A stretch of 64,000 nt of DNA from a virus: IMG/VR virus record IMGVR_UViG_3300032561_000012, positions 20,543-84,542 of that record; one strand, given 5' to 3'. The translations under genes were made by a program, and so were the position numbers. The notes under the pieces were generated by a model that was given only the letters and a program-made list of their open reading frames with translations, was not told where the DNA came from and did not search any database. Of the stretch, positions 14,601 through 61,138 are shown piece after piece (position 1 is the stretch's first letter; each line of letters begins with the position of its first letter).

Positions 14601-15658
14601 GCATCAACTAACACAACTTTCCATACGTTGTATCTCAACGATGAGCTGACAATAGTACCTGCGTTATAACCTGGTACTACATTACCTGAGTGATCATGTA
14701 CTACTGGAGCAGTCCAATCAGCATCGCCACCTTTGTGTGGCCAAGTGCTGACACTAGAAAAAACTAGTTTCTTACCTGTGAGCTGTTGAACAATACCGTT
14801 GTATTGTGGGTACTCTGTAGTAAACTGACTGACTGTTTTATTCTGCCAGGTATTGTATGGTACTGGCGTAGAGTAGTCTATATTGTCTACTACCTGCATG
14901 CCTGAGAACTTGTCTTGTGCCGTGCTTTGCGGAACATTGAATGAAATAGTACCAACATCAATACCATTGTTAGTTACGCCATAGACGTCGCGTGAGCTGA
15001 TAGTAGGAGTAGCATTTACTTTACCTGCTAGAGCTAGATTGCCTCGTTCGCTTTGAATCCAAAAAGGTACACCAGGTTGATTGACTATAAATTTATACTC
15101 GCCACCGCGTGCCAGAGTAATACTATAGTCTACTGTGCCAGTCTGATCAGTAAAAATATACTGAAGATTGTTAGGATCACGAGTGACTGTGTATGTTGTA
15201 GTCAGTGGCAGACCTGAGGTGTTAACAGCCACAGCATCAGGACCATTAGGCAACCAGTAGTATTGACTAAAGTTAACAAACTTGTCATATGAAATTAATG
15301 GATCAAAACTGTAGTATTCTTGTTCCCATAGGCGACTTTGATTATTAGTGAATCCGCCATAGTAATTGATTTGATTTAGTAAATCGCGATAGCTAGCAAA
15401 GAATTTAATATTCTGTTGTTGATCTTTGATTACCAAGCTAGGTTCAAGCTGATAGTCTTGACGATCAGCTGTAGGTTCAATTATGTAGCTATCACCGCTC
15501 TTATATGTAGGAGCAAATGTGCGTCCTATGTAACCATATAAGTTTGTTAAATTAGGTTCACTGACCAGTTGATCCATTGTAGCTGATAAGAACTTTTGAT
15601 TCGTATCAGTTTGGAATACACTAGGTAAAAATTTAAGCGTTTTTCTTGTTACGGCCAT
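2648..15658 (-). CDS. Giant baseplate wedge/virion protein, 4336 aa, with FG-GAP propeller repeats
   Basis: Uninterrupted 13-kb ORF directly downstream of the gp6-like gene (gp7-like position). Contains seven FG-GAP-like repeats and CBM5/12-like W..Y..GD.V.Y motifs. Confidence 0.7.
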   Translation of the reverse strand: MAVTRKTLKFLPSVFQTDTNQKFLSATMDQLVSEPNLTNLYGYIGRTFAPTYKSGDSYIIEPTADRQDYQLEPSLVIKDQQQNIKFFASYRDLLNQINYYGGFTNNQSRLWEQEYYSFDPLISYDKFVNFSQYYWLPNGPDAVAVNTSGLPLTTTYTVTRDPNNLQYIFTDQTGTVDYSITLARGGEYKFIVNQPGVPFWIQSERGNLALAGKVNATPTISSRDVYGVTNNGIDVGTISFNVPQSTAQDKFSGMQVVDNIDYSTPVPYNTWQNKTVSQFTTEYPQYNGIVQQLTGKKLVFSSVSTWPHKGGDADWTAPVVHDHSGNVVPGYNAGTIVSSSLRYNVWKVVLVDAGIKNADGTNDLLIQLIPDQAVAVNQKVYIKFGVVNANREFYKDLDGLFYPMPLLTAGLDTLWIQDGTNYNIFEKIKVVEYNNWAIDVDADILGQQNYTSPNGVNFTSGLKIQFGTDVTPAEYQNNQYYVEEVGNQALYNSGIRLVPVDQMITPEAYIKENTLLYPNTLFPDYITINRSSVDRNAWSRNNRWFHVDVITATANYNGVLPSFDQNSRGQRPIIQFDADTLLFNYGRRGLDAIDILDTTTTDAFTQLQGQTYSTAFGIPLLDANGKPIYPNGLRVIFAADQDPLVKNKIYLVKLVQYSVDLDGAPTGPYHIELVKAADGDVLPYDTTTVATGQYAGSEWWYNGVQWNSSQQKTAVNQFPLFEVLDVSGKSFSTYTRSTFKGTWLFGYLVNSTGFVDPVLGFSLTYRNFSTQGDIEFQNYFNTDSFTYSDASGVVQTELINLGYLQTIVDSQTLQPKNTWKTVPENSKQYQQISYTYDGTTSSFPIDVVPNTSATIPYLKVFQNYTYLQSSQWALANSAVTVSATLTTGDQIDILVYSDQVSQLGFYQVPQNLDVNAQNVDINTLTLGQVRNHLVALAQNSNSVIGNILGSSNLRDIDIKAQGGTLLQHSAPAPLSIFLVDDNANFINALRFAQQEYTKFKNKFLELAVSLPGIIPTDPAASVDLILTKINAVKNKSFPFYYSDMVPYGPLKTTLTYTVFDPLVTDYQLTNVFNDQQLSNQAVLVYVNGQQVVNNQDFEFSSTVPAITFLTTLNVGDIITINEYSNTDGNYIPETPTKLGLWPPYVPEVFYDNTYRTPTDVIRGHDGSVTPVFNDYRDQFLLELELRIFNNIKLPDTGTYGDILSVVPGKFRRVPEAYSLAEINQLASNSFLNWIGNNKLDFSTNSTFESNDSFTWNYAGQPDKLTGEALPGSWRACYQYYYDTLRPHLTPWEMLGFATMPTWWESYYGPAPYTGGNTLLWNDLEAGLIVQGARAGIDPHYVRPGLSQVIPVDQNGNLLSPAQIMAKSINSRKMAQSWAVGQYGPVEYAWRSSSEFPYAVQQAIALAKPGKYFGLLIDTYNYSQFNQLNTLQDTSSGLVIGSEQYLTRNTNHHITQDQVDFNGDTSSGTVYRGAGYINWIAEYLRNQGINPESYISPFIKSFTVNLAYAAAGFTDQKYLEVLAEQVSPTSTNNSIVIPNENYKVWTVEGPVPVGKLIYSAVIVEKTTNGYSVRGYDLQNSYFTIIPSVVNSNANKTTVLNSTATLFNNYQNLKLKVPYGFEFSTQQQIADFLISYQRYLVAQGFTFGLVDPNLGEIRDWNLSVKEFLYWAQQGWKPGSILVLSPVADTLTAISVNSITAGITDSQYGSKVIDQNFNLVRNNNYSVLRTPTTFKLSLTDPASVIGYVEVDLVQYEHILIFDNTTVFDDVIYQPETGNRQYRLKLIGQKTAAWDGSLYAPGFIYSSGVVDSWNQGQDYLQGDIVEYKSQYYTALQDIIASPTFQFQYWSQLTSNQIQKGLLPNFSTLAVEAQSYYDSYGEIKDKDNLTYSHTLIGYKPRQYLSDLGLTKTTQIEFYKGYIAQKGSANAVNQMLRATFNNLTSDIKFYEEWAIRVGAYGALDSNPYIEIPLNEKAFGVNPSVAQFVTAENNNLGDGVAVFNQSQLYGSYGTYNGNIALIRTSHSNYDNDIPTAGYVNSQDVDLTIFDLANYVDLDNNIASMGSGYRIWVAKDFKRDWNVYRVTETNNLVTQVANSLNNYITFTTQAPHNFVAGTATTEGSVFLIKNFSTAFDGFYQVYKVVDLNNIMVKYLGSPSNVSSLTTQTGSGILYRLDSMRFQYMEDARLYGYAGNPPHGWQVGEKIWIDDNAATTLAMGSPVATVEHLWNVYEKAHPWNFTQQVTKGVNEYTQGDGFGTSVAMSADNLVVAVGSPTALNGVGSVNTFLKNYAGTFAEGVTVQPLGTNTSAFGQAVDLSVDANNSDVLAVGAPNSGTSGNTGYVYIYSKTVSSSTFDRKQIIVGGNVGDLFGSSIQFNQDGEWLYVGAAGNNNVYAYGLSRFVPFQQQTVSVKDQVTLTLSGNISATATQLINQSVSGAQGSLAATVSNSSVVVLTNLVSNFAIGSNVLIGNTYVAGNISIQSVDAGVYVTNVVNASVTNSIPLTFTPYAANDATSLLITSSNKTYIPNQDYTLSGSTVYFTANVVQSDISIVQQPYYKLVKNIQNPNPANTFANFGHSLSASFDGAQIAIGAPGDTVAGEGGNLLVGAGCIYIYDRVIEAFKTTGGLIYTTRNPIGPVYKVTIDGNEVTNYTVTGTYTIEFIDPPEVGHVLYIEVNDFNLLERLIGVDSLENTLTALQAGAAFGTSLTVCGINCAIYTGAPYYANGTEYNSGAIWKFHNRGRLYGTNTGYAVNPVFTPGDSIRLQNFEVIVSARMMPTTYNGQAANILALSSNITAVAGQTISQNQGSGVYANVVVLANVTNSQFVTVTNYTGNILFNYGQSSTGANVVAIVNPVWNNNSHIWANTSITTTAYPMASLDSIVKDVNDAQILGVSAVNQNGLLRLNSDVTVAKDQLRILSGIRTPGSPGVYADADLRLFAFMQIIVNPFGQPGEYFGSQVKIAQNAYMLVIGAARGTTHRYTTFDVATTTNSTTFDRTTTKWFDSIPGSGSTYIYELYDDPRDDVYTPGRYQYCQNLDPGLLASGAEFGYSLDVKETFVVVSAPGATVNGEPSGTGAVYIFENPTLARGWGLIRYQQAKVDPDSLTRAYLYNNLTNTIIDDLQFIDPAKGRILGEAEQEISYKTEYDPAQYNVGTNANADINSNVYWGDLQVGRVWWNLSQVRYIDYEQDTNLNDKITYRSINWGNLFPGAVIEVCEWVKSIYLPSQYVANGGDGQPKYADNSAYVEITYVDPTTNIITTNYYYWVTGKTTVDPNNPTRHLPTSVIADYIQNPKNQGLAYAAVISPQAIAFYNVGSYLSADNTIMHLDYQLLINSDMIHSEYELVQKGNPSDPIPVKIVNKLVDSLAGLDSIGQTVPDPTLSDADRYGIDIRPRQSMFKGRLTAVVEMVQYANSILIANPIVEQYSLAGMYAEDPQPDYKLGAYDQSVSTVEELNYIDTMSLAPGYLVLVTSDSTQNGLWVLYVLTADKLWQIEQVQAYKTSLYWTYTDWYATGYSAATKPNFSVMTTNDALALKPAAGEIIYVSDATGNGTWRLFVVNTDGTFQVVGIQNGTIQLNTSLGDFVNNALGFGNQDFDSSRFDQDPNNEIRAIVQALNNDIFIDQLQGEFNNLFFILVNYLLTEQNYVDWLFKSSFISVTHKLRTLSQFPSYIVDNQTYYQDYINEVKPYRTKVREYLIDYTGNDTYSGSVTDFDLPAYYDTSTGYGIFRSPSGEVPYTSEDEATWQTFPYNQWYDNRTLQVGAVIVETTGANYSFVPQVTISSVDGKGSGATATAVMSGPVTGNANLTVVSITVTNPGSGYITTPVVTINGTSSVSATAYAQLVKLPFTNNTPLLTGNAYPLVRTFDTAIKFDRTTYSSTVQQWQPYTNYIAGQIVTYAQPEGNVLVRQAYQVKSNIITSGTFFSGDYTVYAANLFTNASDRIVGYYEPSNVMPVVDTITVPITVANAAVSANTIYVFPASNLLKGMTISGANVTAGYITNIVSNVTINLSNVITSVTQISLSVNVSLATDTTITATYNALDQLLTGITYPSSPVVGAGFDLSPGFGRTWDLSSYDSVQYSQDGIPLLSTNVLDTIYQSNYVTEELAGNTPEEIVLSGGQYIDRYYSHAPEELVPGITFDTLDMRIYTSNVTVNGANVTLGYRIFDNMINKPSYLRISSANTTVLTHSLGLTDGNIFVANAAALTMPDPVNLKPGVIFIDAERITYWTANVVTNTLGQIRRGTQGTAAATHLAGASAFDASASQIIPNTTYGNLITYANVFYNNGTGTALDGTGLNGSDTLAANVMKAYPATYSNIIPGMNNAITTENAINMMIATEGNVTIYTET

Positions 15659-51413: not shown

Positions 51414-52418
51414 ATGGCAATAGTTACTACCCATTTAGTCAGCGGTCGTGTTCCGGTAGTTGCACCAACTAGCGTTACACCTGATCGTTATACATATCTA
51501 GGACTTAGTCAAGCAGAGCCTAACCTTGGTTACAGTGGCAATGGTAACGTCTTAACTACAAATATCTATGGACAACGCATTTGGTCTAGCAATATTAATC
51601 TAACTAATATTCAGGTTACTGGAACTATTGTTGCAGGAGCAGTAATAGCTGGCGGTATTAACCAATACGTTAGTAACACTGTACCCGCAACAGCTGCAGT
51701 AGGCGACCAATGGTATGACACTAGCACTGATATTTTATTCCAATATGAAAATACTGGTTCTAGTAATGTTTGGGTAGATGTATCATCAGTGGCACTGAAT
51801 ACCAACGTTGCTACTATTTTAGGCACAACATTAAGTATCACAGGCAACGGCACAATTACCAGCGGATTAACTGTTGGCAGTTTGACTATCAACGGCAGTG
51901 AAACTGCAACAGGTACATTGACTATTAACAGTTCAGGAAACCCAACTGCTATTCTTAACGGTAATGTTTCTGGAGTTGGTAATATTGGCTCAGCGGGTAC
52001 TACATTTAATACTGTGTTTGCTAAAGCCACAACAGCACAGTACGCTGACTTGGCTGAGATATATGCCAGCGACAGTTTATACCCAGCAGGCACAGTGGTC
52101 ATCTTTGGCGGTGTTGCAGAAGTTACCGCAAGTACAACCAATCACGATTCAGCAGTGGCCGGGGTAGTAAGTACAAATCCAGCATACTTAATGAACACAG
52201 CAGCATCAGGTGTAGCAGTAGCACTGCAAGGTCGAGTACATTGTTCTGTGCTAGGCCCAATTAACAAGGGCGACTTAGTGGTTACTAGTGATGTACCTGG
52301 AGTAGCGCAACGACTAGATCCTACGCTATGGAAACCAGGTTGTGTTATAGGTAAGAGTTTAGAAATAATTACTTCAAATCAAATAGCAACTATTGAAGTT
52401 GTGGTAGGGAGAGACTAA
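51414..52418 (+). CDS. Tail fibre protein with C-terminal peptidase-G2-like intramolecular chaperone
   Basis: AQYADLAEIY..GTVV..AGVVSTNPAYLMN..VALQGRV..KGD..IGKSL motifs. Confidence 0.75.
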   Translation: MAIVTTHLVSGRVPVVAPTSVTPDRYTYLGLSQAEPNLGYSGNGNVLTTNIYGQRIWSSNINLTNIQVTGTIVAGAVIAGGINQYVSNTVPATAAVGDQWYDTSTDILFQYENTGSSNVWVDVSSVALNTNVATILGTTLSITGNGTITSGLTVGSLTINGSETATGTLTINSSGNPTAILNGNVSGVGNIGSAGTTFNTVFAKATTAQYADLAEIYASDSLYPAGTVVIFGGVAEVTASTTNHDSAVAGVVSTNPAYLMNTAASGVAVALQGRVHCSVLGPINKGDLVVTSDVPGVAQRLDPTLWKPGCVIGKSLEIITSNQIATIEVVVGRD

Positions 52419-53242
52419 TGGGATTTCCACAGAACCCACTCAATGGTAACATAGCAACTGTAAATGGTATTACCTATACCTACAACAGTACTAAAACTGC
52501 TTGGCTACGAGCTACTACTACAGGCGCTAATCTTACTGCTAATAGCTTAACATTAACATCAAATGCTAGTGCTATATCAAGTTCTTCTGGAGCATTGATA
52601 GTCACAGGTGGCGCGGGTATTGGGGGCAACTTATATGTTGCAGGATCACTATACGGAAATATTACAGGTAACATTAATGGTATCGGTAGTATAAATTCTA
52701 CCACTGCCGCATTTAGTAATTTAATTTCTACATTGGCAACAGTTACAGGTAATATCACAGCAGGCAACATTACAGCAGGTAATGTAACTGCTAGTTATTT
52801 TGCGGGTGCGTTACTTACTGCATCGCAACCACTGCTAACAACATTAGCCAATATACAAATTTATTCGTTGGGTGTAGGCACCCCACCATCGCAAACACAA
52901 GGTGAAATACGTGCTACAAACCAAATTACATCATACTACTCAGACGAACGATTAAAAACACGTTTAGGTAGAATTGAAAACGCTTTAGACAAAGTAGATC
53001 AAATCTCAGGGTTCTATCATGAGGCCAATGACACTGCGGTAGAATTAGGTTTTTCTAAGGTGCGCGAAGTTGGTGTAAGTGCGCAAGAAATACAATCAGT
53101 ACTGCCAGAAGTTGTTACTCTAGCACCATTTGATGAACGCTACCTAACAGTTCGTTACGAAAGATTAACTCCGTTGCTGATTGAAGCAATTAAAGAACTA
53201 CGTCAAGAAGTTAACGCTATTAAAAAACAGCTTGGCGGTTAA
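52418..53242 (+). CDS. Short tail fibre with peptidase S74 (endosialidase-type) chaperone
   Basis: YSDERLK..IENALDKV..GVSAQEIQSVLPEVV..VRYERLTPLLIEAIKEL. Confidence 0.85.
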   Translation: MGFPQNPLNGNIATVNGITYTYNSTKTAWLRATTTGANLTANSLTLTSNASAISSSSGALIVTGGAGIGGNLYVAGSLYGNITGNINGIGSINSTTAAFSNLISTLATVTGNITAGNITAGNVTASYFAGALLTASQPLLTTLANIQIYSLGVGTPPSQTQGEIRATNQITSYYSDERLKTRLGRIENALDKVDQISGFYHEANDTAVELGFSKVREVGVSAQEIQSVLPEVVTLAPFDERYLTVRYERLTPLLIEAIKELRQEVNAIKKQLGG

Positions 53243-53243
53243 A

Positions 53244-53804
53244 ATGACTTTTGATCAATTCAAAGTCATAGACAACTTCATACCTTTGTCACTACAAGAA
53301 CAAATAAAGTCAACACTACTGGGACCAAAATTTGCTTGGTTCTACACTGTAGATGTGACTTATAACGCAGATGCTCCTATAGATCGTAGAAATCCAGGAT
53401 TTAGCTACTTGTTTAATCAGAATGATAGTATAGCTCCAGACATTGCAACATTGGCCTACACTGGCGCAATGACAGCAGGAGTGCAATATACAAATATCCT
53501 GCAGGCACGAGCATTCTTGCAACTGCCGCTAAGTGATAGATTTTTAACCGCAGGTGTTGATCCTTTACATGTTGACACTCAAACTCCACATTTAGTGGTG
53601 TTGTATTACGTTGTAGATTCAGATGGCGATACTCTACTAACTAACAGCACTCACAGTGATAGCTTACAGGTCGAAGATCATACTATCATAGCACGAGTTA
53701 GTCCTAAACAAGGCAGGGCACTGTTATTTGATGGCGGCTTGTATCACACAGCAGAACAACCAAAAGACAATGTTCGCTGTGTTATTAACCTGGACCTAGC
53801 TTAA
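53244..53804 (+). CDS. 2OG-Fe(II) oxygenase
   Basis: VIDNF start, HVD, YH and RCVIN motifs; start taken as ATG 53244. Confidence 0.8.
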   Translation: MTFDQFKVIDNFIPLSLQEQIKSTLLGPKFAWFYTVDVTYNADAPIDRRNPGFSYLFNQNDSIAPDIATLAYTGAMTAGVQYTNILQARAFLQLPLSDRFLTAGVDPLHVDTQTPHLVVLYYVVDSDGDTLLTNSTHSDSLQVEDHTIIARVSPKQGRALLFDGGLYHTAEQPKDNVRCVINLDLA

Positions 53805-53805
53805 A

Positions 53806-53812
53806 ATAAATA
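53806..53812 (+). promoter_or_regulatory. Late promoter (ATAAATA) for the three Cys-tail genes
   Basis: Consensus match followed by an AGGAG RBS. Confidence 0.65.
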
Positions 53813-53827
53813 AGGTAGGAGACTGAA

Positions 53828-54115
53828 ATGGCAACAACATTAGGCAATGGAATAGTAACATTTGGAGATGGCACTCGTTTGGGGTCAAACGTCATTCCTT
53901 ACGGTAATATTACCAACCCTAAAACTAACCTTACACAGTTTACTAACGATTTAGGTAACTATGGTAATTTTCTTACAGCTAACTCAATTAATACTACTCA
54001 GATTAATACAGGCGCATGGGCTAGTATGTATCTTACTTTGACTAACTGTGGAAGTAGTACTACATTGGGGTTAGCTACAGATAACTGTAATTGTAATTGT
54101 GCATGTAACTGTTAG
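53828..54115 (+). CDS. Cys-tail paralog 1 (putative radical SAM substrate)
   Basis: Conserved N-terminal half; ends DNCNCNCACNC. Confidence 0.85.
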   Translation: MATTLGNGIVTFGDGTRLGSNVIPYGNITNPKTNLTQFTNDLGNYGNFLTANSINTTQINTGAWASMYLTLTNCGSSTTLGLATDNCNCNCACNC

Positions 54116-54124
54116 GAATAAGTA

Positions 54125-54403
54125 ATGTCAACAACGTTAGGAAATGGTGTAGTAACTTTTGGAGATGGAACTAGTTTGCGCAGTTCACAGATTCAACTGG
54201 CCAATGTCAGCGGAGCGCCAACTAATCTTAGTGGGTTTACTAACAATTTAGGTAACTATGGTAATTTTATAGATGCTACAATAATTAACACAGCCAGCAG
54301 TGGATATTATAGTGCAAGTGAATATGGTCCTAAATTTTTAAATTGGAACGGTAATACTCTGCAGATAACAGCTAGTAACTGTAATTGTAATTGTAATTGT
54401 TAG
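54125..54403 (+). CDS. Cys-tail paralog 2
   Basis: Same N-terminal half; ends SNCNCNCNC. Confidence 0.85.
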   Translation: MSTTLGNGVVTFGDGTSLRSSQIQLANVSGAPTNLSGFTNNLGNYGNFIDATIINTASSGYYSASEYGPKFLNWNGNTLQITASNCNCNCNC

Positions 54404-54411
54404 GATAATAT

Positions 54412-54759
54412 ATGTCAGACATACTAGGCAATGGTGTAGTAACTTTTGGAGATGGAACTAGTTTAAGTAGTGCTGTCATTCCTTGGACTAATTTTACCAG
54501 TCGCCCAACACAGTTAAGTCAGTTTACCAATGATTTAGGCAACTATGGCGCTTTCTTGACCACTACCGCTAATGTTTTCACTGGTGACAGTGGGTACGGT
54601 GCAGGCAATGAATTTGACAATCCCAACGGTACTGTTAATGCCTGCGGTAGTGGACGCGGGGGTATTGGTCACTTAACCAGCGGAGTATGGAGTCTGACAT
54701 GGAATGGTACCTATCCGGGGCTAGCTGTTTATAACTGTAATTGTGCCTGTAACTGTTAA
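54412..54759 (+). CDS. Cys-tail paralog 3
   Basis: Same N-terminal half; ends YNCNCACNC. Confidence 0.85.
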   Translation: MSDILGNGVVTFGDGTSLSSAVIPWTNFTSRPTQLSQFTNDLGNYGAFLTTTANVFTGDSGYGAGNEFDNPNGTVNACGSGRGGIGHLTSGVWSLTWNGTYPGLAVYNCNCACNC

Positions 54760-54766
54760 AAAATAG

Positions 54767-54795
54767 TTGCACCTTAACATTAAGATATATATATT
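54767..54795 (+). promoter_or_regulatory. Possible sigma70-type promoter for the enzyme genes
   Basis: TTGCAC, 17-nt spacer, TATATT; same -35 as the gp47 promoter. Confidence 0.45.
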
Positions 54796-54809
54796 AAAGG
54801 ACTTGTAGT

Positions 54810-55574
54810 ATGGATTTTTATGCATTAACCACAAATAGAATATTACCAACTAATGATATTAGTATTGTTGGCGATACACTAACTATTAATATTTCTGATG
54901 TAACTATGGCCAATAGTTTTGGTAATACCAGTACATCAGATAGTTTTAGTTTGTCTAATTTGATTAGTAACTATGCTGTAGATCACGGTTGTATTGCTAT
55001 AATTCCTCAAGGCATGCAGGCCAATGCTAGAATGATGACCATAGAAACAACCCAACTCAGCCTAGTAGAAAAGGCTGCACCAGGTAGCAGCTACACATCA
55101 TATCAAACCACTGAAGGCAAACACTATGCTGGTAGTCCTTACAGCGTTATTGACAGTCGTTATCGTTCATACGGATATGTGTATATTCTAACACCAAGAA
55201 TTAACTGTACAGTAGATGAATGTTCAGTGATCTATAGAGACTCAAACGCTAATGTAACTGTTAATGGTAGTCAAATAACCCCAACAGCCTCAATAACTTC
55301 AACACATGCTTTCTTAGCCAATTGGATGCCCATTACTATCAGTGGCGGCTCTACAATTACAGCAGGCGATACTGCTACATATACCGTATCAGGTACAGCT
55401 AATACAACAATCTATGTCAGCGCAGACATTGGCACAGTTAATCGTGGGCGAGTAGCAGAAGGCGGGAGTTTTCAATTAAACACAGCAGGACTCGAAGCTG
55501 GTGAAACTGTGACAATCAAAGTAGGCTACAAAACTTGGAGTGGAGTAGCAACTAAGGTGGTAACTCTTGAATAA
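54810..55574 (+). CDS. Hypothetical protein with C-terminal Ig-like segment
   Basis: 254 aa; C-terminal ITISGGSTITAGDTATYTVSG...GETVTIKVGYK; overlaps the start of the next gene. Confidence 0.7.
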   Translation: MDFYALTTNRILPTNDISIVGDTLTINISDVTMANSFGNTSTSDSFSLSNLISNYAVDHGCIAIIPQGMQANARMMTIETTQLSLVEKAAPGSSYTSYQTTEGKHYAGSPYSVIDSRYRSYGYVYILTPRINCTVDECSVIYRDSNANVTVNGSQITPTASITSTHAFLANWMPITISGGSTITAGDTATYTVSGTANTTIYVSADIGTVNRGRVAEGGSFQLNTAGLEAGETVTIKVGYKTWSGVATKVVTLE

Positions 55575-56205
55575 CATAGTTTCACTATGGCCAACTAATG
55601 TTCTTTATGAGCAACAGGCTGTTGAAGCTACACAAGATTTTTTGTCTGAAATCTTAGCCATTGGCGAAGAATACGAACTACAACACCCAGAAGCCCACGT
55701 GCCTGTGGCTATGCGCAAAAACAAAGAAAATGTCTACAACTTACTCGCAGATCCTCGTCCAGCCTGTCAACTATTTAAACAGATGCTAAAGTCGCGTATG
55801 CTAGACCTAGCGGGCGTAGAAGGATTTTTAAACACTGTAGAATTTGAAGCTGTTACTAGCCTGCGCAAGTTTGCTCCAGGTGATTATGCTAAACCACACA
55901 ATCACCGTAGTGTGGACTATGTGGCAGTGTTGTGGTTAGCATTAGAAGACACAGATCCGCCAAGCAATAACACACATCAACGCATGACAGGTAATCGTTT
56001 TCATATGATTGATCCAATGCCCTCACGCAGCAGATTTTTAAATCACACTATGTTATTCCCTGTGAGTCCCCGTCCTGGTACCTTTCTAATACACCCAGCA
56101 TCAACATTTCATACTACAGAAGCCAACCTAGGCTCAGTGGATACCATAGCATTGGCTACTAATATCAAAGTTATAGACCCAGCCAGGAACTACGTTACTT
56201 TATAA
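55567..56205 (+). CDS. 2OG-Fe(II) oxygenase-like cupin (TIGR02466-like)
   Basis: LWPT start, PHNH, DP and PRPG.FLIHPA..FH motifs. Confidence 0.7.
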   Translation: MNNIVSLWPTNVLYEQQAVEATQDFLSEILAIGEEYELQHPEAHVPVAMRKNKENVYNLLADPRPACQLFKQMLKSRMLDLAGVEGFLNTVEFEAVTSLRKFAPGDYAKPHNHRSVDYVAVLWLALEDTDPPSNNTHQRMTGNRFHMIDPMPSRSRFLNHTMLFPVSPRPGTFLIHPASTFHTTEANLGSVDTIALATNIKVIDPARNYVTL

Positions 56206-57566
56206 TGGCTAAATTTACTATCCGTGCAGTAAAACCTATTACTAACGAAGAATACACATTTGTGTATGATAATCTAACATCTGAAATATTTGACAGCACT
56301 GGCACTAGATTAGAGTTTAAATCAACAGAAACAATCAACTACGGTACAGTTTTTGCTACTAGTCAATCAACCCCAGCTGGTAAATCACATGATATTACCT
56401 CACTTAAAATACAACTAGGATTGAGTTGCAATTACGAATGTGTATATTGTAGCCAACGGTTCGTGCCTAAGGCAGATGAAACCAACAAAGATGATGTCGG
56501 CCCATTCTTAGCTGAATTGCCTACATGGTTCAATGGTGGTGATGGTACAGGAATTAAAGTTGAATTTTGGGGAGGTGAGCCATTTGTCTATTGGAAAACA
56601 CTTAAACCCTTGGCAGAAGGCATACGTAATTTATACCCAAACATTAAATTTGGCATAGTAACCAATGGTACTCTATTAGATCTAGAAAAGAATCAATGGC
56701 TAGATGATCTAGGATTTAGTGTAGGTATTAGCCACGACGGCCCTGGATACCATGCTCGCGGATTAGATCCGTTTGATAATCCAGAACAGTTTGCTATGAT
56801 CATGGACTTGTGGAATAGATTAAATCCTAGTCGCCGCATAAGTTTCAATGCAATGGTTCATAAAAATAATTCAAGTAGAGCGGCGATTGTTGATTGGTTT
56901 AAAGATCGCCTGGGAGTTGAAGTACCAATGGGCGAAGGTGCTTTTATTGATCCCTATGACGAGGGTGGTGCTAGTCTATGTATGACAGACCCAGCAGAAC
57001 ATGTTGCTTATAGAGTCAATAGTTTTAAAGAATTACGTAACAACCAAGGTACAAATTTGGATGTAGTACGTAGAAGAATCAGTGATTTTATTCGAAGTAT
57101 AGTAACACAACGCCCAGGCACAGCACTAGGGCAAAAATGCGGCATGGATAAACCTGATCAACTAGCAGTAGACTTAACAGGTAATGTGCTGACCTGTCAA
57201 AATGTGTCAGCAGTGGCCACAAGCTTCAATGGTGCTAGTCACCAAATTGGACACGTTAAAGATTTTGACAATATCAAACTCAAATCATCAACACATTGGA
57301 GTCACAGAGCTGAATGCCCTAACTGCCCGGTACTACAGATCTGTCAAGGTAGTTGTATGTTCCTAGAAGGTGACATGTGGAACCTAGCCTGTGACAATGC
57401 CTACAGTGATAATATTCCTTTCTTTATGGCCGCCTGGGAAATACTCACAGGCACAATTCCCTACTATATCGATGGGCCACAAGCAGAAGCACGCAAAGAC
57501 ATTATTGGTACTGTTAACGGAATCCCCGCTAAAAGAACTAAAATAATCCCTATAATCGCTGAATAA
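56205..57566 (+). CDS. Radical SAM/SPASM-domain maturase-like enzyme
   Basis: CNYECVYC, FWGGEP, TNG and SHDG motifs; SPASM cysteines KCG..TCQ..CPNCPVLQICQGSC..AC. Confidence 0.9.
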   Translation: MAKFTIRAVKPITNEEYTFVYDNLTSEIFDSTGTRLEFKSTETINYGTVFATSQSTPAGKSHDITSLKIQLGLSCNYECVYCSQRFVPKADETNKDDVGPFLAELPTWFNGGDGTGIKVEFWGGEPFVYWKTLKPLAEGIRNLYPNIKFGIVTNGTLLDLEKNQWLDDLGFSVGISHDGPGYHARGLDPFDNPEQFAMIMDLWNRLNPSRRISFNAMVHKNNSSRAAIVDWFKDRLGVEVPMGEGAFIDPYDEGGASLCMTDPAEHVAYRVNSFKELRNNQGTNLDVVRRRISDFIRSIVTQRPGTALGQKCGMDKPDQLAVDLTGNVLTCQNVSAVATSFNGASHQIGHVKDFDNIKLKSSTHWSHRAECPNCPVLQICQGSCMFLEGDMWNLACDNAYSDNIPFFMAAWEILTGTIPYYIDGPQAEARKDIIGTVNGIPAKRTKIIPIIAE

Positions 57567-57679: not shown

Positions 57680-60600
57680 ATGGCAAATCTAACCAGAATT
57701 CTTAATAATCAGATTACTAATAGTACCATTATTGCTAGTCAGAAAATTGCAGCAGGTACTATTGTAGGTAGTCTGTTTGCTAGTAACGTTACAGTCCCAG
57801 GTGACTTGTTGATTACAGGTAACTTGTTTGTCTTAGGTAACAGTGTACAAACAACTATTGCATCAACTAACACCTACGTTAATGATCCCCTACTTACTCT
57901 AAACAACGGTTTTACTGGTACTAACACCTATGATGAAGGGTTAATATTTAACCGCGGATCTAGTACTAACCAAGCATTTATTTGGAGTGAAACCTATAAA
58001 GAATTCCGTGTGGTTAGCACAACAGAAACTGGTACTACCTACGGTAATATCAATGCTACTGGTCTAGCAAACTTATCAGTCGGCAGTTTTGTTGCTACTG
58101 GTATTGGTAATATTTCTACACTTTATTCAGCAACTGCTACAATCTTAAATGCATATCATACAACATTAAATGTAACTGGTAACGTATTGCTTGGGCTAAC
58201 ACAGGCTGCGGCTATCAATGCTACACCAATTGGTAACATAACACAAGCTTCAGGTCAATTTACGACCTTATCAGCAACAGCAAGTTTCTATGCAAATGCT
58301 GGTACACCAAGCACATCGACATCAACAGGAGCCGCAGTAGTAATTGGCGGGGTAGGGGTTGCAGGTAACATCTACGCTAACAGCATTTATCTAAGTGCTG
58401 GTTCTGTATCTTCAGGTGTATATGCTGGCGCATACACAGATGGTATTGTATTAGATTACCAAACAGGCATGGGTCGTATTAGTGTTGGCTCTAATGACGG
58501 TATTACACTATATAATAACACAGACACAACCAGAGTTGCACTAGTAACAGTTGGGTCTAACGGTAACCTAACAGCAATATCTATCAATGCTACACCAATC
58601 GGTAATGTAACACCAAGCACAGGTGTATTTACAGTATTAAGTGCTAATCAAAACTTATGGGCTAACGCAAGTATAGCAACTACCGCACAAGGTATTGGCG
58701 CAGTTGTAGTACCAAACGGGGGTATTAGTGTTGCAGGCGCAGCAAACATTGCTCTAGGTACAACAATTGGTGGTGCAACACAAATTAACAACACATTAGG
58801 TGTTGGTGGCGTAACTTCAATTACTAATACCACAAATGCGACCGGAGCATCAACTGGTGCATTACAAGTAGCAGGCGGCGCTAGTTTCTCACAAGATGTA
58901 TGGATTGGTGGCAACTTATTTGTTAGCAATATTATAGGGGTTCAAGCTAACATTATTACAGTAACAGACCCGTTACTATACCTAAGAAATTCTAATGTAA
59001 GTGTATACAATTATGATATTGGTTTCTACAGTGCGTTTACTGGCACAGGTCTAGGTACAATTAATCAATATCAACACACCGCTGTTTTCCGTAATCCTTT
59101 AAATAACACATGGAATTTTGTAAGTAACCTTGCAGAACCTAGTGCAAGTTACATTACTATTGACAGTACTACTGTCTACGATCCAATTAAAGCTGGTAAC
59201 TTGCAATTAACAGTTACTACAGACAGTATAAATGCAACTACTGGTGCGCTGATTGTAGCTGGTGGTGCTGGTATTGGTGGTAACATATTCCAGACTGGTG
59301 CATACCATGATTCAAGTTCTAGCAACTTTATCCATATGCCAACGCCAACTACGGCTAACAACTTTGCAAGTGCTACAACAATATTCTATGGTGCACCTAC
59401 TGGCGACTTTGTTATTCGTAACCAAAATATCAGTACAGTACAAACAGGCACAGTAAACCTACTCAATGCCAATGTTACAACACTAAACTTTGCTGGAGCC
59501 GCAACCACAATCAGCGTAGGCGCTGCAACAGGTACAACAACATTTAACTCAGCTACCAATGGCGCTACTTATAGAGCAGGTGCTGTGGTAATCAGTGGTG
59601 GTGTTGGTGTAAACGGTAACTTAAATTTATCTAGAAGTAATTACATAACACTCGGTGCTGACCTAAACAGTAATATTGTTTATCCAGAAAACTCAGTACA
59701 GGTAACAACAACTTCTAACGCAAGTTCTAGAATCAGTATTCAAAATACTAATACAGGACTGTTAGCAACTAGTGAATTTAATGTAATATCTAGCAATGGT
59801 TCTAACACGTCAGCTTACATGTCAGTTGGTATCACTGGTCAAAATTACCAATCAGCCTCTGCACCAATACTTAAACCTCAAGACGGGTATACATACACTT
59901 CAACTGGTAATTTAATATTAGCTAGTGCGAAAGACATATTAATGTCTGCAGGCGGATTAACGGCTATTGACATTATTGTTAGCAATGCAAACGGTAATGT
60001 TGGTGTACAAAATTCAACAGCGGCAACATCGAGTACTACCGGTGCATTAACATCGGTTGGTGGTATTAGTACACAGGCTAACTTATACACAGGCACAGGG
60101 GCAACAATCAATACTAATAATGGTATTGAAGGATTTACTGTTAAGAGCAGTAAATCAGGTAACGTGGCTATATTTGCTAACGTTGCCACACAAAATGGTG
60201 CCGCAACAGAATCAGTGATTATTGGTGGCGGCAACTTAGCTGTACAACCTGGGGTACTATTAAAAGTCAGTGGCGTAACATCAATGATGGTACCGGTTGG
60301 TCCTACATCAGCACGCCCAAGTAGCATATTAGGTGCAGGATATGATGCACAGGGTATGATACGTTTTAATACTACTAGCACCTTGTTAGAGTATTATGAT
60401 GGTACACAATGGCAGGCTGCAGGTAGTGCGTTTACTGTTATTAGCGATCGCCAATTCCAAGGTAATGTACCGGCAGGCTACGGTAACGTTGACGGCACTA
60501 ACACAACATTTACTATCCAAAGTAATTCAACCACAGCAGGTACACTGGTAAGCATCAACGGTGTGATGCAGTTCCCAGTACTGGCCTACAGTGTTAGTGG

Positions 60601-61138
60601 TACAACACTGACATTTACAGAACCGCCAGCACCAACAGATATTATTGACGTTCGTGTGTTGACAACAACTACATCGGTTACTACTATTTCTAGTGCCAAT
60701 GGTCTGAATCAATTAATTGCTGACACCACAGGTGTGAGCTTATGGTCTGGTACTAGTGCAACTACGGAACGTATATTAGTTGACCCAGTGGGCAATTTTA
60801 ACATCTTAACTGGTAGTAAAATTACCTACACACAAACACCAACTAATATACCAACTACAGCTACTCCTGTACTAATTGACAGTTGGAGTCAAACAGCTTA
60901 TACTAGTGCAACATATGAAGCACAAGCTAAAGTTGGCTCAACTAATATGGAAGTCTATAATGTTAAAGCATTAACAGATGGTGCTGGTAATGCGTTTGTG
61001 TCGGTGTACGGAGTAATCAATAACGGTACAACATTTGGTACATTTAGTGCCAACGTTGGTGGCGGTAATGTAAATGTCTACTACACATCATCAATAGCAC
61101 AGGCCAATGTTAAAGCATTTGGTACTTACATAGTATAA
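57680..61138 (+). CDS. Long tail fibre/virion structural protein
   Basis: Repeated STSTGAL.V.GG.G..GN units and GMIRFNTT..LEYYDG and LVSINGV.Q.P modules. Confidence 0.7.
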   Translation: MANLTRILNNQITNSTIIASQKIAAGTIVGSLFASNVTVPGDLLITGNLFVLGNSVQTTIASTNTYVNDPLLTLNNGFTGTNTYDEGLIFNRGSSTNQAFIWSETYKEFRVVSTTETGTTYGNINATGLANLSVGSFVATGIGNISTLYSATATILNAYHTTLNVTGNVLLGLTQAAAINATPIGNITQASGQFTTLSATASFYANAGTPSTSTSTGAAVVIGGVGVAGNIYANSIYLSAGSVSSGVYAGAYTDGIVLDYQTGMGRISVGSNDGITLYNNTDTTRVALVTVGSNGNLTAISINATPIGNVTPSTGVFTVLSANQNLWANASIATTAQGIGAVVVPNGGISVAGAANIALGTTIGGATQINNTLGVGGVTSITNTTNATGASTGALQVAGGASFSQDVWIGGNLFVSNIIGVQANIITVTDPLLYLRNSNVSVYNYDIGFYSAFTGTGLGTINQYQHTAVFRNPLNNTWNFVSNLAEPSASYITIDSTTVYDPIKAGNLQLTVTTDSINATTGALIVAGGAGIGGNIFQTGAYHDSSSSNFIHMPTPTTANNFASATTIFYGAPTGDFVIRNQNISTVQTGTVNLLNANVTTLNFAGAATTISVGAATGTTTFNSATNGATYRAGAVVISGGVGVNGNLNLSRSNYITLGADLNSNIVYPENSVQVTTTSNASSRISIQNTNTGLLATSEFNVISSNGSNTSAYMSVGITGQNYQSASAPILKPQDGYTYTSTGNLILASAKDILMSAGGLTAIDIIVSNANGNVGVQNSTAATSSTTGALTSVGGISTQANLYTGTGATINTNNGIEGFTVKSSKSGNVAIFANVATQNGAATESVIIGGGNLAVQPGVLLKVSGVTSMMVPVGPTSARPSSILGAGYDAQGMIRFNTTSTLLEYYDGTQWQAAGSAFTVISDRQFQGNVPAGYGNVDGTNTTFTIQSNSTTAGTLVSINGVMQFPVLAYSVSGTTLTFTEPPAPTDIIDVRVLTTTTSVTTISSANGLNQLIADTTGVSLWSGTSATTERILVDPVGNFNILTGSKITYTQTPTNIPTTATPVLIDSWSQTAYTSATYEAQAKVGSTNMEVYNVKALTDGAGNAFVSVYGVINNGTTFGTFSANVGGGNVNVYYTSSIAQANVKAFGTYIV

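What the first reader, a model, noticed from the sequence alone, without database searches (positions are those of the whole stretch)
53244..57566. Phage-encoded RiPP-like system: three Cys-tail paralogs, two oxygenases and a radical SAM-SPASM enzyme inside the tail-fibre locus
Seen: three tandem 92-115 aa genes share an ~48-aa N-terminal half (LGNG.VTFGDGT...T.L..FTN.LGNYG.F), have variable middles, and all end in alternating Cys tails (NCNCNCACNC, NCNCNCNC, NCNCACNC). They are followed by an overlapping trio of a 254-aa unknown protein, a cupin/2OG oxygenase and a radical SAM with a full SPASM Cys set, and are preceded by a second 2OG oxygenase. Established: SPASM radical SAMs next to Cys-rich small ORFs install thioether crosslinks (sactipeptides, ranthipeptides); streptococcal NxxcB links Cys to the Asn beta-carbon in an N-x-x-C motif, and NCNC/NCAC fits that spacing. 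Inference: the phage post-translationally crosslinks and perhaps hydroxylates these proteins. No transporter or leader peptidase is visible and the cluster sits among fibre genes under a late promoter, so the products are probably modified virion components rather than secreted peptides.
Basis: partly seen in the sequence, partly recalled or inferred. Interest (0 to 1): 0.93.

Follow-up and report, generated by a model that had tools for sequence, protein, structure and literature searches.

The report
Radical-SAM-matured Asn-Cys phage fibre tips
A giant lake-water phage encodes three small tail-fibre-type proteins that end in Asn-Cys ladders, next to a dedicated iron-sulfur "radical SAM" enzyme; the same pairing sits at the end of tail-fibre genes in well over a hundred other phages and prophages, so these viruses very probably modify (most likely cross-link) their fibre tips enzymatically, a step I found described in no paper.

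Summary
Three tandem genes of 95, 92 and 115 aa share an N-terminal half and end in NCNCNCACNC, NCNCNCNC and NCNCACNC. They are followed by a 254-aa protein (P), a 2OG-type oxygenase and a radical SAM enzyme with a complete seven-Cys SPASM set, all inside the fibre module of a myovirus.

The link between tail and enzyme is strong in both directions:
- 119 of 125 homologous loci with enough upstream DNA carry a same-strand ORF with such a run, nearly always within 0-8 residues of the stop.
- 33 of 34 C-terminal (NC)4 runs found by a DNA pattern have this enzyme within 3.5 kb downstream.

In most relatives the tail ends a real tail fibre of 184-686 aa, with collagen repeats and tail-fibre PHROG matches. 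In five loci a self-cleaving Hint domain follows it directly. The window's proteins are therefore minimal fibre-tip proteins, not secreted RiPP precursors.

The chemistry is not shown. Cys thioethers to Asn/Asp are most likely, because the x positions are N >> D > A, the acceptor set of NxxcB.

The scan has already found this system on other DNA (eight notes). I found no paper on it. The "late promoter" is unsupported.

The parts
52418..53242 (+). Context: 274-aa tail fibre with a C-terminal intramolecular chaperone (Peptidase_S74)
   Evidence: PF13884 8e-12; many tail-fibre PHROGs. In L147 and L159 an S74-type fibre likewise precedes a small Asn-Cys protein and the radical SAM gene.
53244..53804 (+). 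Accessory 2OG-Fe(II) oxygenase-like protein (OxA, 186 aa), a lineage-specific extra
   Evidence: PF13640 E 0.0069, under the cut-off; phrog_274 1.3e-29. ESM Atlas 0.97 to viral PF13640 clusters. HVD...H is present in the sequence. Homologues occur in only 6 of 164 loci.
53828..54115 (+). Fibre-tip paralog A, 95 aa, tail NCNCNCACNC (5 Cys)
   Evidence: Orthogroup of 6 rows with support 97/97. Holds the 'LTQFTNDLGNYG' fibre junction motif.
54125..54403 (+). Fibre-tip paralog B, 92 aa, tail NCNCNCNC (4 Cys)
   Evidence: Orthogroup of 6 rows with support 98/98.
54412..54759 (+). Fibre-tip paralog C, 115 aa, tail NCNCACNC (4 Cys), with the insert CGSGRGG.GHLTSG
   Evidence: Orthogroup of 7 rows, weakly supported at 71/85.
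54810..55574 (+). P: conserved 254-aa accessory protein, an N-terminal alpha/beta domain plus a C-terminal Ig-like domain. Role unknown (fibre chaperone, adaptor or tip partner).
   Evidence: Homologues in 116 of 164 loci, usually directly after the Asn-Cys gene. AF2 model pLDDT 89.5. Residues 173-254 match intimin/invasin-type Ig domains, Z 9.9. Only uncharacterised viral look-alikes otherwise.
55567..56205 (+). OxB: 2OG/cupin-type oxygenase (212 aa)
   Evidence: PF13759 at its cut-off; phrog_81 2.9e-13. Homologues in 122 of 164 loci. Metal triad H111-x-(H/E/D)113...H182 kept in 30 of 31 family members. Weak PDB matches to PF13759 proteins 2rg4 and 3bvc and to PKHD-type hydroxylases.
56205..57566 (+). 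Radical SAM/SPASM enzyme (453 aa), the core maturase
   Evidence: CX3CX2C plus seven invariant SPASM Cys. PF04055 and TIGR04085 pass their cut-offs. 3066 homologues at E<=1e-20. Closest structures are TigE, anSME, CteB, ChlB, SkfB and SuiB.
57680..61138 (+). Context: 1152-aa fibre-like protein downstream
   Evidence: ORF; no PHROG match. Its composition and repeats are like the neighbouring fibres.

Best explanation
This is a phage fibre-tip maturation cassette.

Shown: the three small genes encode minimal tail-fibre-type proteins. Each has a shared N-terminal module with a fibre junction motif, a variable tip, and a C-terminal (Asn-Cys)n ladder.

Inferred:
- The radical SAM/SPASM enzyme acts on that ladder in the host cytoplasm before virion assembly.
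- The most likely reaction binds a Cys thiolate at an auxiliary Fe-S cluster, abstracts a hydrogen from a neighbouring Asn, Asp or Ala, and forms a C-S thioether (ranthionine/beta-thioether type, as in NxxcB, PapB, QhpD and CrpC).
- Repeating this along the ladder would turn a reducible thiol ladder into a redox-proof, rigid, stapled tip.
- The 2OG oxygenase(s) probably add a second modification to the same tail, for example Asn/Asp beta-hydroxylation.
- P is an Ig-domain accessory that chaperones, presents or caps the tip.

My odds: about 0.85 that the tail is the enzyme's substrate, and about 0.55-0.6 that the product is a thioether.
For: 1. Synteny, enzyme to tail. 119 of 125 homologous loci with more than 3.5 kb upstream carry a same-strand ORF with [NDQ]C(xC)>=2. 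Of 130 distinct such proteins, 124 end within 0-8 residues of the run. Four of the six exceptions are explained: in two the fibre lies outside the flank, and two have degenerate tails, ACNC..ACDC and NCQCGN.
2. Synteny, tail to enzyme. 33 of 34 C-terminal (NC)4 runs found by DNA pattern have the enzyme within 3.5 kb downstream. None of the 4 internal runs has it.
3. The pairing crosses unrelated phage types: the myovirus window, Ackermannviridae RSP15, siphovirus JWF, and prophages of Limnohabitans, Polynucleobacter, Burkholderia and alphaproteobacteria. The fibre bodies are unrelated and only the tail is shared.
4. The enzyme has a full SPASM set. Its best family and structure matches are Cys-modifying peptide or protein maturases: PapB 2.9e-16, CteB, anSME, QhpD, CrpC-type.
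5. The x positions are N 447, D 87, A 48, all others below 20. NxxcB uses Asn as its beta-thioether acceptor and tolerates Ala, Gln and Asp (PMC9389541). PapB and QhpD use Asp/Glu (my knowledge).
6. There is precedent for whole proteins as substrates: CrpC installs ranthionines on the 28.8-kDa protein CrpA (PMC13692751).
7. In five loci a Hint domain starts directly after the ladder (C|FPAGT), so self-cleavage would again leave the ladder at the free C-terminus.
8. Virion context. Portal, major head protein, fibres and sheath surround the cassette. Related long Asn-Cys proteins carry collagen repeats and tail-fibre PHROGs.
Against: - No chemistry was or could be tested. Nothing here separates a thioether from Cys-to-formylglycine or from another radical reaction.
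- Every named maturase family scores far below its cut-off: PapB 59.6 against 340, anSME 43.9 against 349, QhpD 38 against 453, TIGR04463 33.8 against 525. The structural matches are only TM about 0.5.
- The N-terminal domain of the AF2 model is three short strands without helices, not a canonical RRE. How the substrate is recognised is therefore unknown.
- Neither the oxygenase nor P is universal. Some loci have only one of them, so their roles are accessory and unassigned.
- A remote homologue cluster (RP12, 24% identity) has no Asn-Cys tail, so the link holds only for the clade of about 42% identity and above that I sampled.
Confidence: 0.6

Rival explanations
1. The enzyme modifies the ladder, but not by thioether formation. 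One option is anSME-like oxidation of Cys to formylglycine, whose aldehydes could then react with neighbouring Asn amides or with receptor amines. Another is a different radical reaction such as C-C cross-linking, epimerisation or desulfurisation.
For: anSME is among the closest solved structures (4k36, E 3e-10, TM 0.50-0.61) and matches at 1.6e-11 in NCBIfam. GenBank annotates the JWF homologue as 'anaerobic sulfatase-maturating enzyme'. TigE, a non-thioether enzyme, is the top structural hit.
Against: The tails lack the sulfatase C/S-x-P/A-x-R context. anSME TIGR03942 scores 43.9 against a cut-off of 349. The strong preference for Asn/Asp/Ala beside every Cys is explained by an acceptor role but not by formylglycine formation. 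Multiple adjacent target Cys are typical of thioether maturases.
Confidence: 0.22
2. The three small proteins are classical RiPP precursors. The shared 48-aa N-terminal half is a leader, the core is cleaved off, and a modified peptide is released, for example to act on competing cells or on the host.
For: The layout looks leader-like: conserved N-terminal half, variable core. A SPASM maturase lies adjacent. CrpA and CrpB likewise share their first 47 residues (PMC13692751).
Against: No protease or exporter lies in the cassette, in the window or in 160 related loci. The same tail ends 184-686-aa fibres with collagen repeats. The 'leader' contains a junction motif repeated inside more than 300 long tail-fibre proteins. 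The genes sit between fibre genes of the structural module.
Confidence: 0.04
3. The Asn-Cys ladder works unmodified, as a metal-binding or disulfide knot at the three-fold axis of the fibre tip (compare the His-x-His iron sites of the T4 gp37 tip). The radical SAM enzyme serves another substrate, or only delivers or repairs a metal or Fe-S site.
For: Alternating xCxC in a strand places all thiols on one face. Collagen repeats in related fibres imply trimers, so three ladders would meet. The CrpA authors also speculate on metal binding.
Against: The enzyme is tied to the tail in 119 of 125 and 33 of 34 cases. It has the full catalytic radical SAM plus SPASM equipment of substrate-modifying maturases. 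A metal site would not need Asn, Asp or Ala at the x positions.
Confidence: 0.08

Closest known systems
NxxcB/NxxcA (streptococcal RaS-RiPP; Cys-Asn beta-thioether; PMC9389541)
   Same: A radical SAM enzyme with auxiliary clusters acts on a Cys whose partner is an Asn three residues upstream. Every NCNC contains that N-x-x-C spacing. NxxcB's accepted acceptors (Asn, Ala, Gln, Asp) are the residues found at the x positions here.
   Different: NxxcA is a short quorum-regulated peptide with a single motif. Here the substrate is a virion fibre protein with 3-9 consecutive motifs at its C-terminus. Sequence kinship to NxxcB could not be tested because no reference sequence or model was at hand. The spacing match is trivial for an alternating repeat.
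QhpD/QhpC of quinohaemoprotein amine dehydrogenase, and CrpC/CrpA of Methanococcus voltae (PMC13692751)
   Same: SPASM radical SAM enzymes that install several Cys thioethers on a folded protein subunit rather than on an exported peptide. A further tailoring oxygenase (QhpG) acts in the Qhp system (my knowledge). CrpA and CrpB share an N-terminal 47 aa, much as the three paralogs do here.
   Different: The family models are not met: TIGR03906 38 bits against 453, TIGR04463 33.8 against 525. The substrates are unrelated: CxxD/Q motifs against the (NC)n ladder. Those are cellular enzymes or proteins, whereas this is a virus structural protein. CrpC uses an RRE, and none is apparent here.
PapB/PapA (freyrasin) and CteB/CteA (SCIFF) ranthipeptide systems
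   Same: PapB is the best NCBIfam hit (2.9e-16) and CteB is among the best structural hits. Both make repeated Cys-to-Asp/Glu/Thr non-alpha thioethers along a Cys-rich core.
   Different: The PapB score is 59.6 bits against a cut-off of 340. There is no leader, RRE, protease or exporter. The substrate is a fibre.
Anaerobic sulfatase-maturating enzyme (anSME, PDB 4k36)
   Same: A SPASM enzyme that acts on a Cys of a full-length protein. It is among the two closest solved structures and is the annotation carried by the JWF homologue.
   Different: TIGR03942 scores 43.9 bits against 349. There is no sulfatase and no CxPxR motif. The N- and C-terminal extensions (residues 1-60 and 396-453) are absent from anSME.
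C-terminal maturation devices of phage fibres (Peptidase_S74 intramolecular chaperone; T4 gp37 His-x-His iron tip)
   Same: They occupy the same place and deal with the same problem: a device at the distal C-terminus that fixes or stabilises the trimeric tip. The neighbouring fibre 52418-53242 uses S74.
   Different: Those devices are autocatalytic or bind metal. None needs a separate radical enzyme, and none leaves a covalent side-chain modification.

Membership tests
Radical SAM superfamily (PF04055) | CX3CX2C motif binding the SAM-cleaving [4Fe-4S] cluster, and a profile score above the gathering threshold | tested here: met
   C75-x3-C79-x2-C82 is invariant in 15 homologues. PF04055 scores 29.8 bits against 29.5.
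SPASM subfamily (TIGR04085) | C-terminal seven-Cys set (CX9-15GX4C ... CX2CX5CX3C ... C) for two auxiliary [4Fe-4S] clusters | tested here: met
   C312-x13-G326-x4-C331, then C371-x2-C374-x5-C380-x3-C384, then C396. All are invariant. TIGR04085 scores 34.3 bits against 27.
PapB-family ranthipeptide maturase (NF047865) | Equivalog model score of at least 340 bits | tested here: not met
   59.6 bits, E 2.9e-16. It is the best named hit but only a distant relative.
Anaerobic sulfatase maturase (TIGR03942) | Equivalog model score of at least 349 bits, and a sulfatase substrate with C/S-x-P/A-x-R | tested here: not met
   43.9 bits. No such motif occurs in any of 130 tails.
QhpD (TIGR03906) and CrpC-type (TIGR04463) protein thioether maturases | Equivalog model scores of at least 453 and 525 bits | tested here: not met
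   38.0 and 33.8 bits.
NxxcB RaS-RiPP family | Sequence kinship to NxxcB, and an N-x-x-C motif in the substrate with Asn as beta-thioether acceptor | not testable with these tools
   No NxxcB model or sequence was available. The N-x-x-C spacing is present in every NCNC, but that is trivial for an alternating repeat. The chemistry is untested.
RiPP (ribosomally synthesised and post-translationally modified peptide) | A leader-core precursor whose core is released by a protease and usually exported, often with an RRE in the maturase | tested here: not met
   No protease or transporter lies in the window cassette or in 160 related loci. The substrates are mostly 184-686-aa fibres. The enzyme's N-terminal domain in the AF2 model is strands only.
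2OG-Fe(II)/cupin oxygenase (PF13759), for gene 55567-56205 | Profile score at the gathering threshold, and an H-x-(D/E/H)...H metal triad | tested here: met
   27.0 bits against 27; phrog_81 2.9e-13. H111-x-(H/E/D)113...H182 is kept in 30 of 31 members.
2OG-Fe(II) oxygenase (PF13640), for gene 53244-53804 | Profile score of at least 27 bits, and H-x-D...H | tested here: inconclusive
   17.7 bits, E 0.0069. HVD...H is visible in the sequence. ESM Atlas 0.97 to viral PF13640 clusters. No PDB sequence match.
Phage tail-fibre proteins, for the three small paralogs | Homology to fibre modules, position in the fibre gene block, and presence in virions | tested here: inconclusive
   Homology and position are met. 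The junction motif is shared with more than 300 long fibre proteins, many with Peptidase_S74, and with 333-502-aa fibres ending in Asn-Cys runs. Fibre genes flank the cassette. Presence in virions is not testable here.

The most novel reading that the evidence does not exclude
The enzyme makes inter-chain thioethers, forming a covalent 'thioether knot' that locks the three chains of a fibre at the C-terminus. This would be the cytoplasmic, redox-proof counterpart of the disulfide knot of collagen III.

In this window the three conserved paralogs would form one heterotrimeric tip, with one chain of each kind stapled together. That would explain why exactly three orthogroups are kept in six of the seven related phages sampled; the seventh, L009, also has three paralogs but two of them did not group. 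Both inter-protein radical SAM cross-linking and a heterotrimeric phage fibre tip would be without precedent.
Probability: 0.12. Interest if true: 0.95.

Novelty: new variant of a known kind. Interest (0 to 1): 0.82.

Why it matters
Tail-fibre tips decide which hosts a phage can infect. As far as I know they are thought to mature only by folding, chaperones, autoproteolysis or metal binding. A dedicated radical enzyme acting on the tip would be a new layer of virion biochemistry.

The enzyme family is large: 3066 proteins at E<=1e-20. It is common in phages and prophages of abundant freshwater Betaproteobacteria such as Limnohabitans and Polynucleobacter, and in cultured phages that can be tested at once (JWF, 2-1, RSP15).

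For radical SAM enzymology it offers an unnamed SPASM family with a very simple, repetitive, C-terminal substrate motif and no apparent RRE. That combination is attractive for mechanism studies and for stapling proteins.

It also shows a blind spot of RiPP genome mining. Such mining starts from RRE-associated enzymes and discards precursor genes over 600 bp (PMC10288494).

Tried and rejected
- Complex prediction (three copies of paralog B plus P) was not available, so neither trimerisation nor P binding was tested.
I replaced it with a DNA-pattern scan.
- megablast of the locus against GenBank phages found no match.
- Fold searches with the P model gave only generic Ig-like matches for residues 173-254 and uncharacterised viral proteins. 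The N-terminal domain was barely tested and stays unassigned. The ESM Atlas gave only weak leads for P (0.82).
- Fold search with the radical SAM model did not discriminate between reaction types. TigE, anSME, CteB, ChlB, SkfB and SuiB all lie at TM about 0.4-0.5.
- I did not attempt catalytic-site proximity profiling (PMC10288494), because the reference residues and sequences were not at hand.
- The promoter and terminator scan showed nothing above shuffled sequence.
- No RNA holder was listed among public runs, so there is no information on expression.
- Six literature searches on radical SAM or SPASM with tail fibre, on JWF and on RSP15 found no description of this system. Two apparent leads were unrelated: a cyanophage 'antibiotic' radical SAM enzyme and tail-collar proteins next to JmjC enzymes.
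- I looked for the shared N-terminal module in other genes of the window and found none.
- I rejected the secreted-RiPP reading and the 'enzyme unrelated to the tail' reading; see the rival explanations.

Full report
WHAT IS THERE

The window is the last 64 kb of an 84.5-kb IMG/VR contig, estimated 24% complete, so it comes from a jumbo phage. It carries portal, major head protein, several fibre genes and tail sheath.

Between a 274-aa fibre with a Peptidase_S74 chaperone (52418-53242) and a 1152-aa fibre-like gene (57680-61138) lie seven close-packed same-strand genes:
- OxA (53244-53804), a weak 2OG-oxygenase match.
- Three small paralogs of 95, 92 and 115 aa, ending in NCNCNCACNC, NCNCNCNC and NCNCACNC.
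- P (254 aa), which matches no family.
- OxB (212 aa), PF13759 at its cut-off and phrog_81 at 2.9e-13.
- A 453-aa radical SAM enzyme.

The paralogs share residues 1-48 and the tail but not the middle. The enzyme has CX3CX2C and all seven SPASM cysteines, invariant among homologues.

The locus recurs, with no differences where contigs cover it, in lake-water metagenome runs of other years. Contigs bridge the junctions between the paralogs.

IS THE ENZYME TIED TO THE TAILS?

tblastn against GenBank phages found homologues of 43-47% identity in Ralstonia phage RSP15 (Ackermannviridae) and in Achromobacter siphoviruses JWF and 2-1.
- In RSP15 the gene order is side tail fibre (ending ...NTNCQCGN), a P homologue, a 288-aa protein, then the radical SAM gene.
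- In JWF the fibre gp028 carries ...QNCNCDCNCNCSC followed directly by a Hint domain (CFPAGT...), then gp029, then the radical SAM gene.

The family is large, with 3066 proteins at E<=1e-20. I fetched 80 viral and 80 genomic loci. The genomic loci are mostly prophages in Limnohabitans, Polynucleobacter, other Burkholderiales and some alphaproteobacteria.

Scripts over these loci gave:
- 119 of 125 loci with more than 3.5 kb upstream have a same-strand ORF with an [NDQ]C(xC)>=2 run.
- Such runs occur in 149 of 1374 upstream ORFs against 7 of 4099 other ORFs.
- Of 130 distinct proteins with a run, 66 end exactly with it and 58 end within 1-8 residues of it. Five continue into a Hint domain of about 161-175 aa.
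- Four of the six exceptions are explained. L028 and L047 have bigger cassettes whose fibre lies outside the flank. L041 and RSP15 have degenerate tails. L030 and L119 look decayed.

For the converse test I scanned viral contigs for DNA encoding (NC)4. 33 C-terminal in-frame runs have the enzyme within 3.5 kb downstream and one (L240) does not. None of four internal runs has it.

The link has a boundary. The 24%-identical RP12 cluster has three radical SAM genes and no Asn-Cys tail.

WHAT ARE THE SUBSTRATES?

The canonical cassette is: fibre with Asn-Cys tail, then P, then Ox, then the radical SAM gene. P homologues occur in 116 of 164 loci and Ox homologues in 122.

The tailed proteins have a median length of 305 aa and a range of 89-686. 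Sampled long ones carry collagen triple-helix repeats, which implies trimers, and match tail-fibre PHROGs.

The window's lineage (L004-L012) instead has three small stand-alone proteins. Stand-alone small Asn-Cys proteins also occur in L037, L068, L074, L147 and L159, in the last two again after an S74-type fibre.

The paralogs' N-terminal half contains the motif (L)SQFTNDLGNY. A profile search among longer proteins found 335 hits. Most of the best 120 are 600-2000-aa fibre proteins with several copies of this motif, and about half of them carry Peptidase_S74. Fourteen are 333-502-aa proteins that end in Asn-Cys runs. In eleven of the fourteen the motif lies about 45-65 residues before the tail; in the other three it lies near the N-terminus.

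The window's proteins are thus a short N-terminal adaptor plus the terminal 'junction motif - variable tip - ladder' module of such fibres. They fall into three orthogroups kept across six of the seven related phages sampled (support 97/97, 98/98 and a weaker 71/85). The triplication is therefore old and maintained.

Nothing suggests a secreted peptide. No protease or exporter is present in any cassette.

THE ENZYMES

The radical SAM enzyme passes only the generic PF04055 and SPASM models. Every named maturase model scores far below its cut-off; the best hits are PapB, geopeptide, Nif11, CbpB, CcpM, anSME and QhpD.

Its AF2 model (pLDDT 78) has an N-terminal unit of three short strands without helices, which is not a canonical RRE, and a conserved C-terminal extension. 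Foldseek ranks TigE, anSME, CteB, ChlB, SkfB and SuiB at TM about 0.4-0.5. It is an unnamed SPASM family of the peptide- or protein-modifying kind, and neither fold nor profile tells the reaction.

The OxB family keeps H-x-(H/E/D)...H in 30 of 31 members, so it is probably an active metal enzyme. OxA is a P4H-like 2OG oxygenase by weaker evidence and occurs in only 6 loci.

P models well (pLDDT 89.5). It has an unassigned alpha/beta domain plus an intimin/invasin-type Ig domain (Z 9.9). It evolves fast, with mean column identity 23%, as fibre chaperones and adhesins do.

HOW IT MOST LIKELY WORKS

Shown: the genetic coupling, the fibre nature of the substrates, the C-terminal position of the ladder, and the intact catalytic motifs.

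Inferred: the enzyme modifies the ladder's cysteines before assembly. I favour thioether formation to the side chain of a neighbouring residue, for four reasons:
- All close functional analogues with Cys-rich substrates do this.
- The residues between the cysteines are N 447, D 87 and A 48, with all others below 20. This is the acceptor set of NxxcB: Asn native, with Ala, Gln and Asp tolerated (PMC9389541). It is also the Asp/Glu acceptor type of PapB and QhpD (my knowledge).
- Thioethers on whole proteins have precedent. CrpC installs ranthionines on the 28.8-kDa CrpA (PMC13692751), and QhpD acts on QhpC.
- There is a rationale. Disulfides cannot form in the reducing cytoplasm where virions assemble, whereas thioethers can, and they remain stable in oxic lake water.

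The Hint-domain variants fit this picture. N-S acyl shift at the Cys that starts the Hint domain would cleave right after the ladder, again exposing it as the C-terminus. The Pfam Hint hits are under their cut-offs, and the RefSeq JWF record names gp028 a Hint-family protein.

The roles of the oxygenase (hydroxylation of Asn/Asp?) and of P (chaperone, presenter or cap?) are guesses.

The main rival is another reaction on the same tail, such as formylglycine, at about 0.22. Metal-only and secreted-RiPP readings are unlikely.

COMPARISON AND NOVELTY

The system works like QhpD/QhpC and CrpC/CrpA (protein thioether maturation) and like NxxcB or PapB in its motif logic. It is a member of none of these families by their models.

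Six literature searches returned no paper that links a radical SAM enzyme to a phage fibre tail. RiPP mining pipelines would miss it by design, because they use RRE-based sets and discard precursors over 600 bp (PMC10288494).

Earlier notes of this scan had already found the same enzyme-tail pairing on other DNA: giant freshwater phages, a Burkholderia prophage with Hint, and marine T4-like phages. My independent tests agree with them.

What this window adds:
- The split form, with three conserved small tip paralogs.
- The junction-motif link to long fibres.
- The two-way co-occurrence statistics.
- The x-residue spectrum.

I class it as a new variant of a known kind (radical SAM/SPASM protein maturation) in an unprecedented setting, the host-recognition organ of viruses.

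LIMITS

- No biochemical evidence exists.
- The loci sampled are the best 80 of each collection, at 42% identity or more.
- Some loci from the pattern scan come from the same contigs as loci of the first set.

Noticed in passing
window 2648-15658 (-): A single ORF of 4336 aa, followed by ORFs of 1131, 692 and 1106 aa on the same strand. These are giant proteins of unknown role in this jumbo phage.
   Followed up: no
L164 (Ralstonia phage RP12) 496-7221: A remote relative of the enzyme (24% identity) sits in a block with two more radical SAM genes. A 125-aa His/Tyr-rich protein (HTHNYYDYYW ... HTHYSPDGSY) lies nearby, next to a virion structural protein. There is no Asn-Cys tail. This may be a different fibre- or virion-protein maturation system.
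   Followed up: partly
L147 5527-5982; L159 5552-5947: Small proteins of 131-151 aa directly upstream of the radical SAM gene, with 12-14 Asn-Cys dipeptides spread over the whole chain (NCTNC..., NCNCACTYNC...). In L147 there is an acidic GDDGDDGDGDGG end. This is a more extreme, all-ladder substrate form.
   Followed up: partly
L240 and L236 (viral contigs from the pattern scan): L240 has a 96-aa ORF with NCNCNCNC 10 residues from its end and no radical SAM homologue in 10 kb downstream. L236 has a 113-aa ORF with (NC)8GCGC 32 residues from its end and no enzyme in 3.9 kb. These may be orphan or differently organised tails.
   Followed up: no
window 54402 -> 56202 (run X19): One contig of a 2023 freshwater run joins the end of paralog B's ladder directly to the start of the radical SAM gene, skipping 1799 nt. 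Only 22 letters lie on the shorter side. It may be a relative in which the Asn-Cys gene abuts the enzyme gene, as in L190, L193 and L198, or it may be a chance join.
   Followed up: no
L002 (JWF) 5793-7244; L054, L124, L141, L162: Tail fibres in which the Asn-Cys ladder is followed at once by a Hint (intein-like) domain of about 161-175 aa, a self-cleaving C-terminal cap on a fibre. In the loci with this arrangement the next gene is sometimes not P-like (JWF gp029 is helical).
   Followed up: partly
proteins P0121-P0240: The motif (L)SQFTND.GNY/GY recurs 2-8 times per protein in hundreds of long phage fibre proteins, at spacings of about 45-170 residues. It appears to mark module junctions, and I know of no family model for it.
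   Followed up: partly
window 53244-53804: PHROG 274, which this 2OG-oxygenase-like protein matches at 1.3e-29, is labelled 'DNA endonuclease V'. The label looks wrong for this member, which has HxD...H and groups with viral PF13640 clusters.
   Followed up: partly
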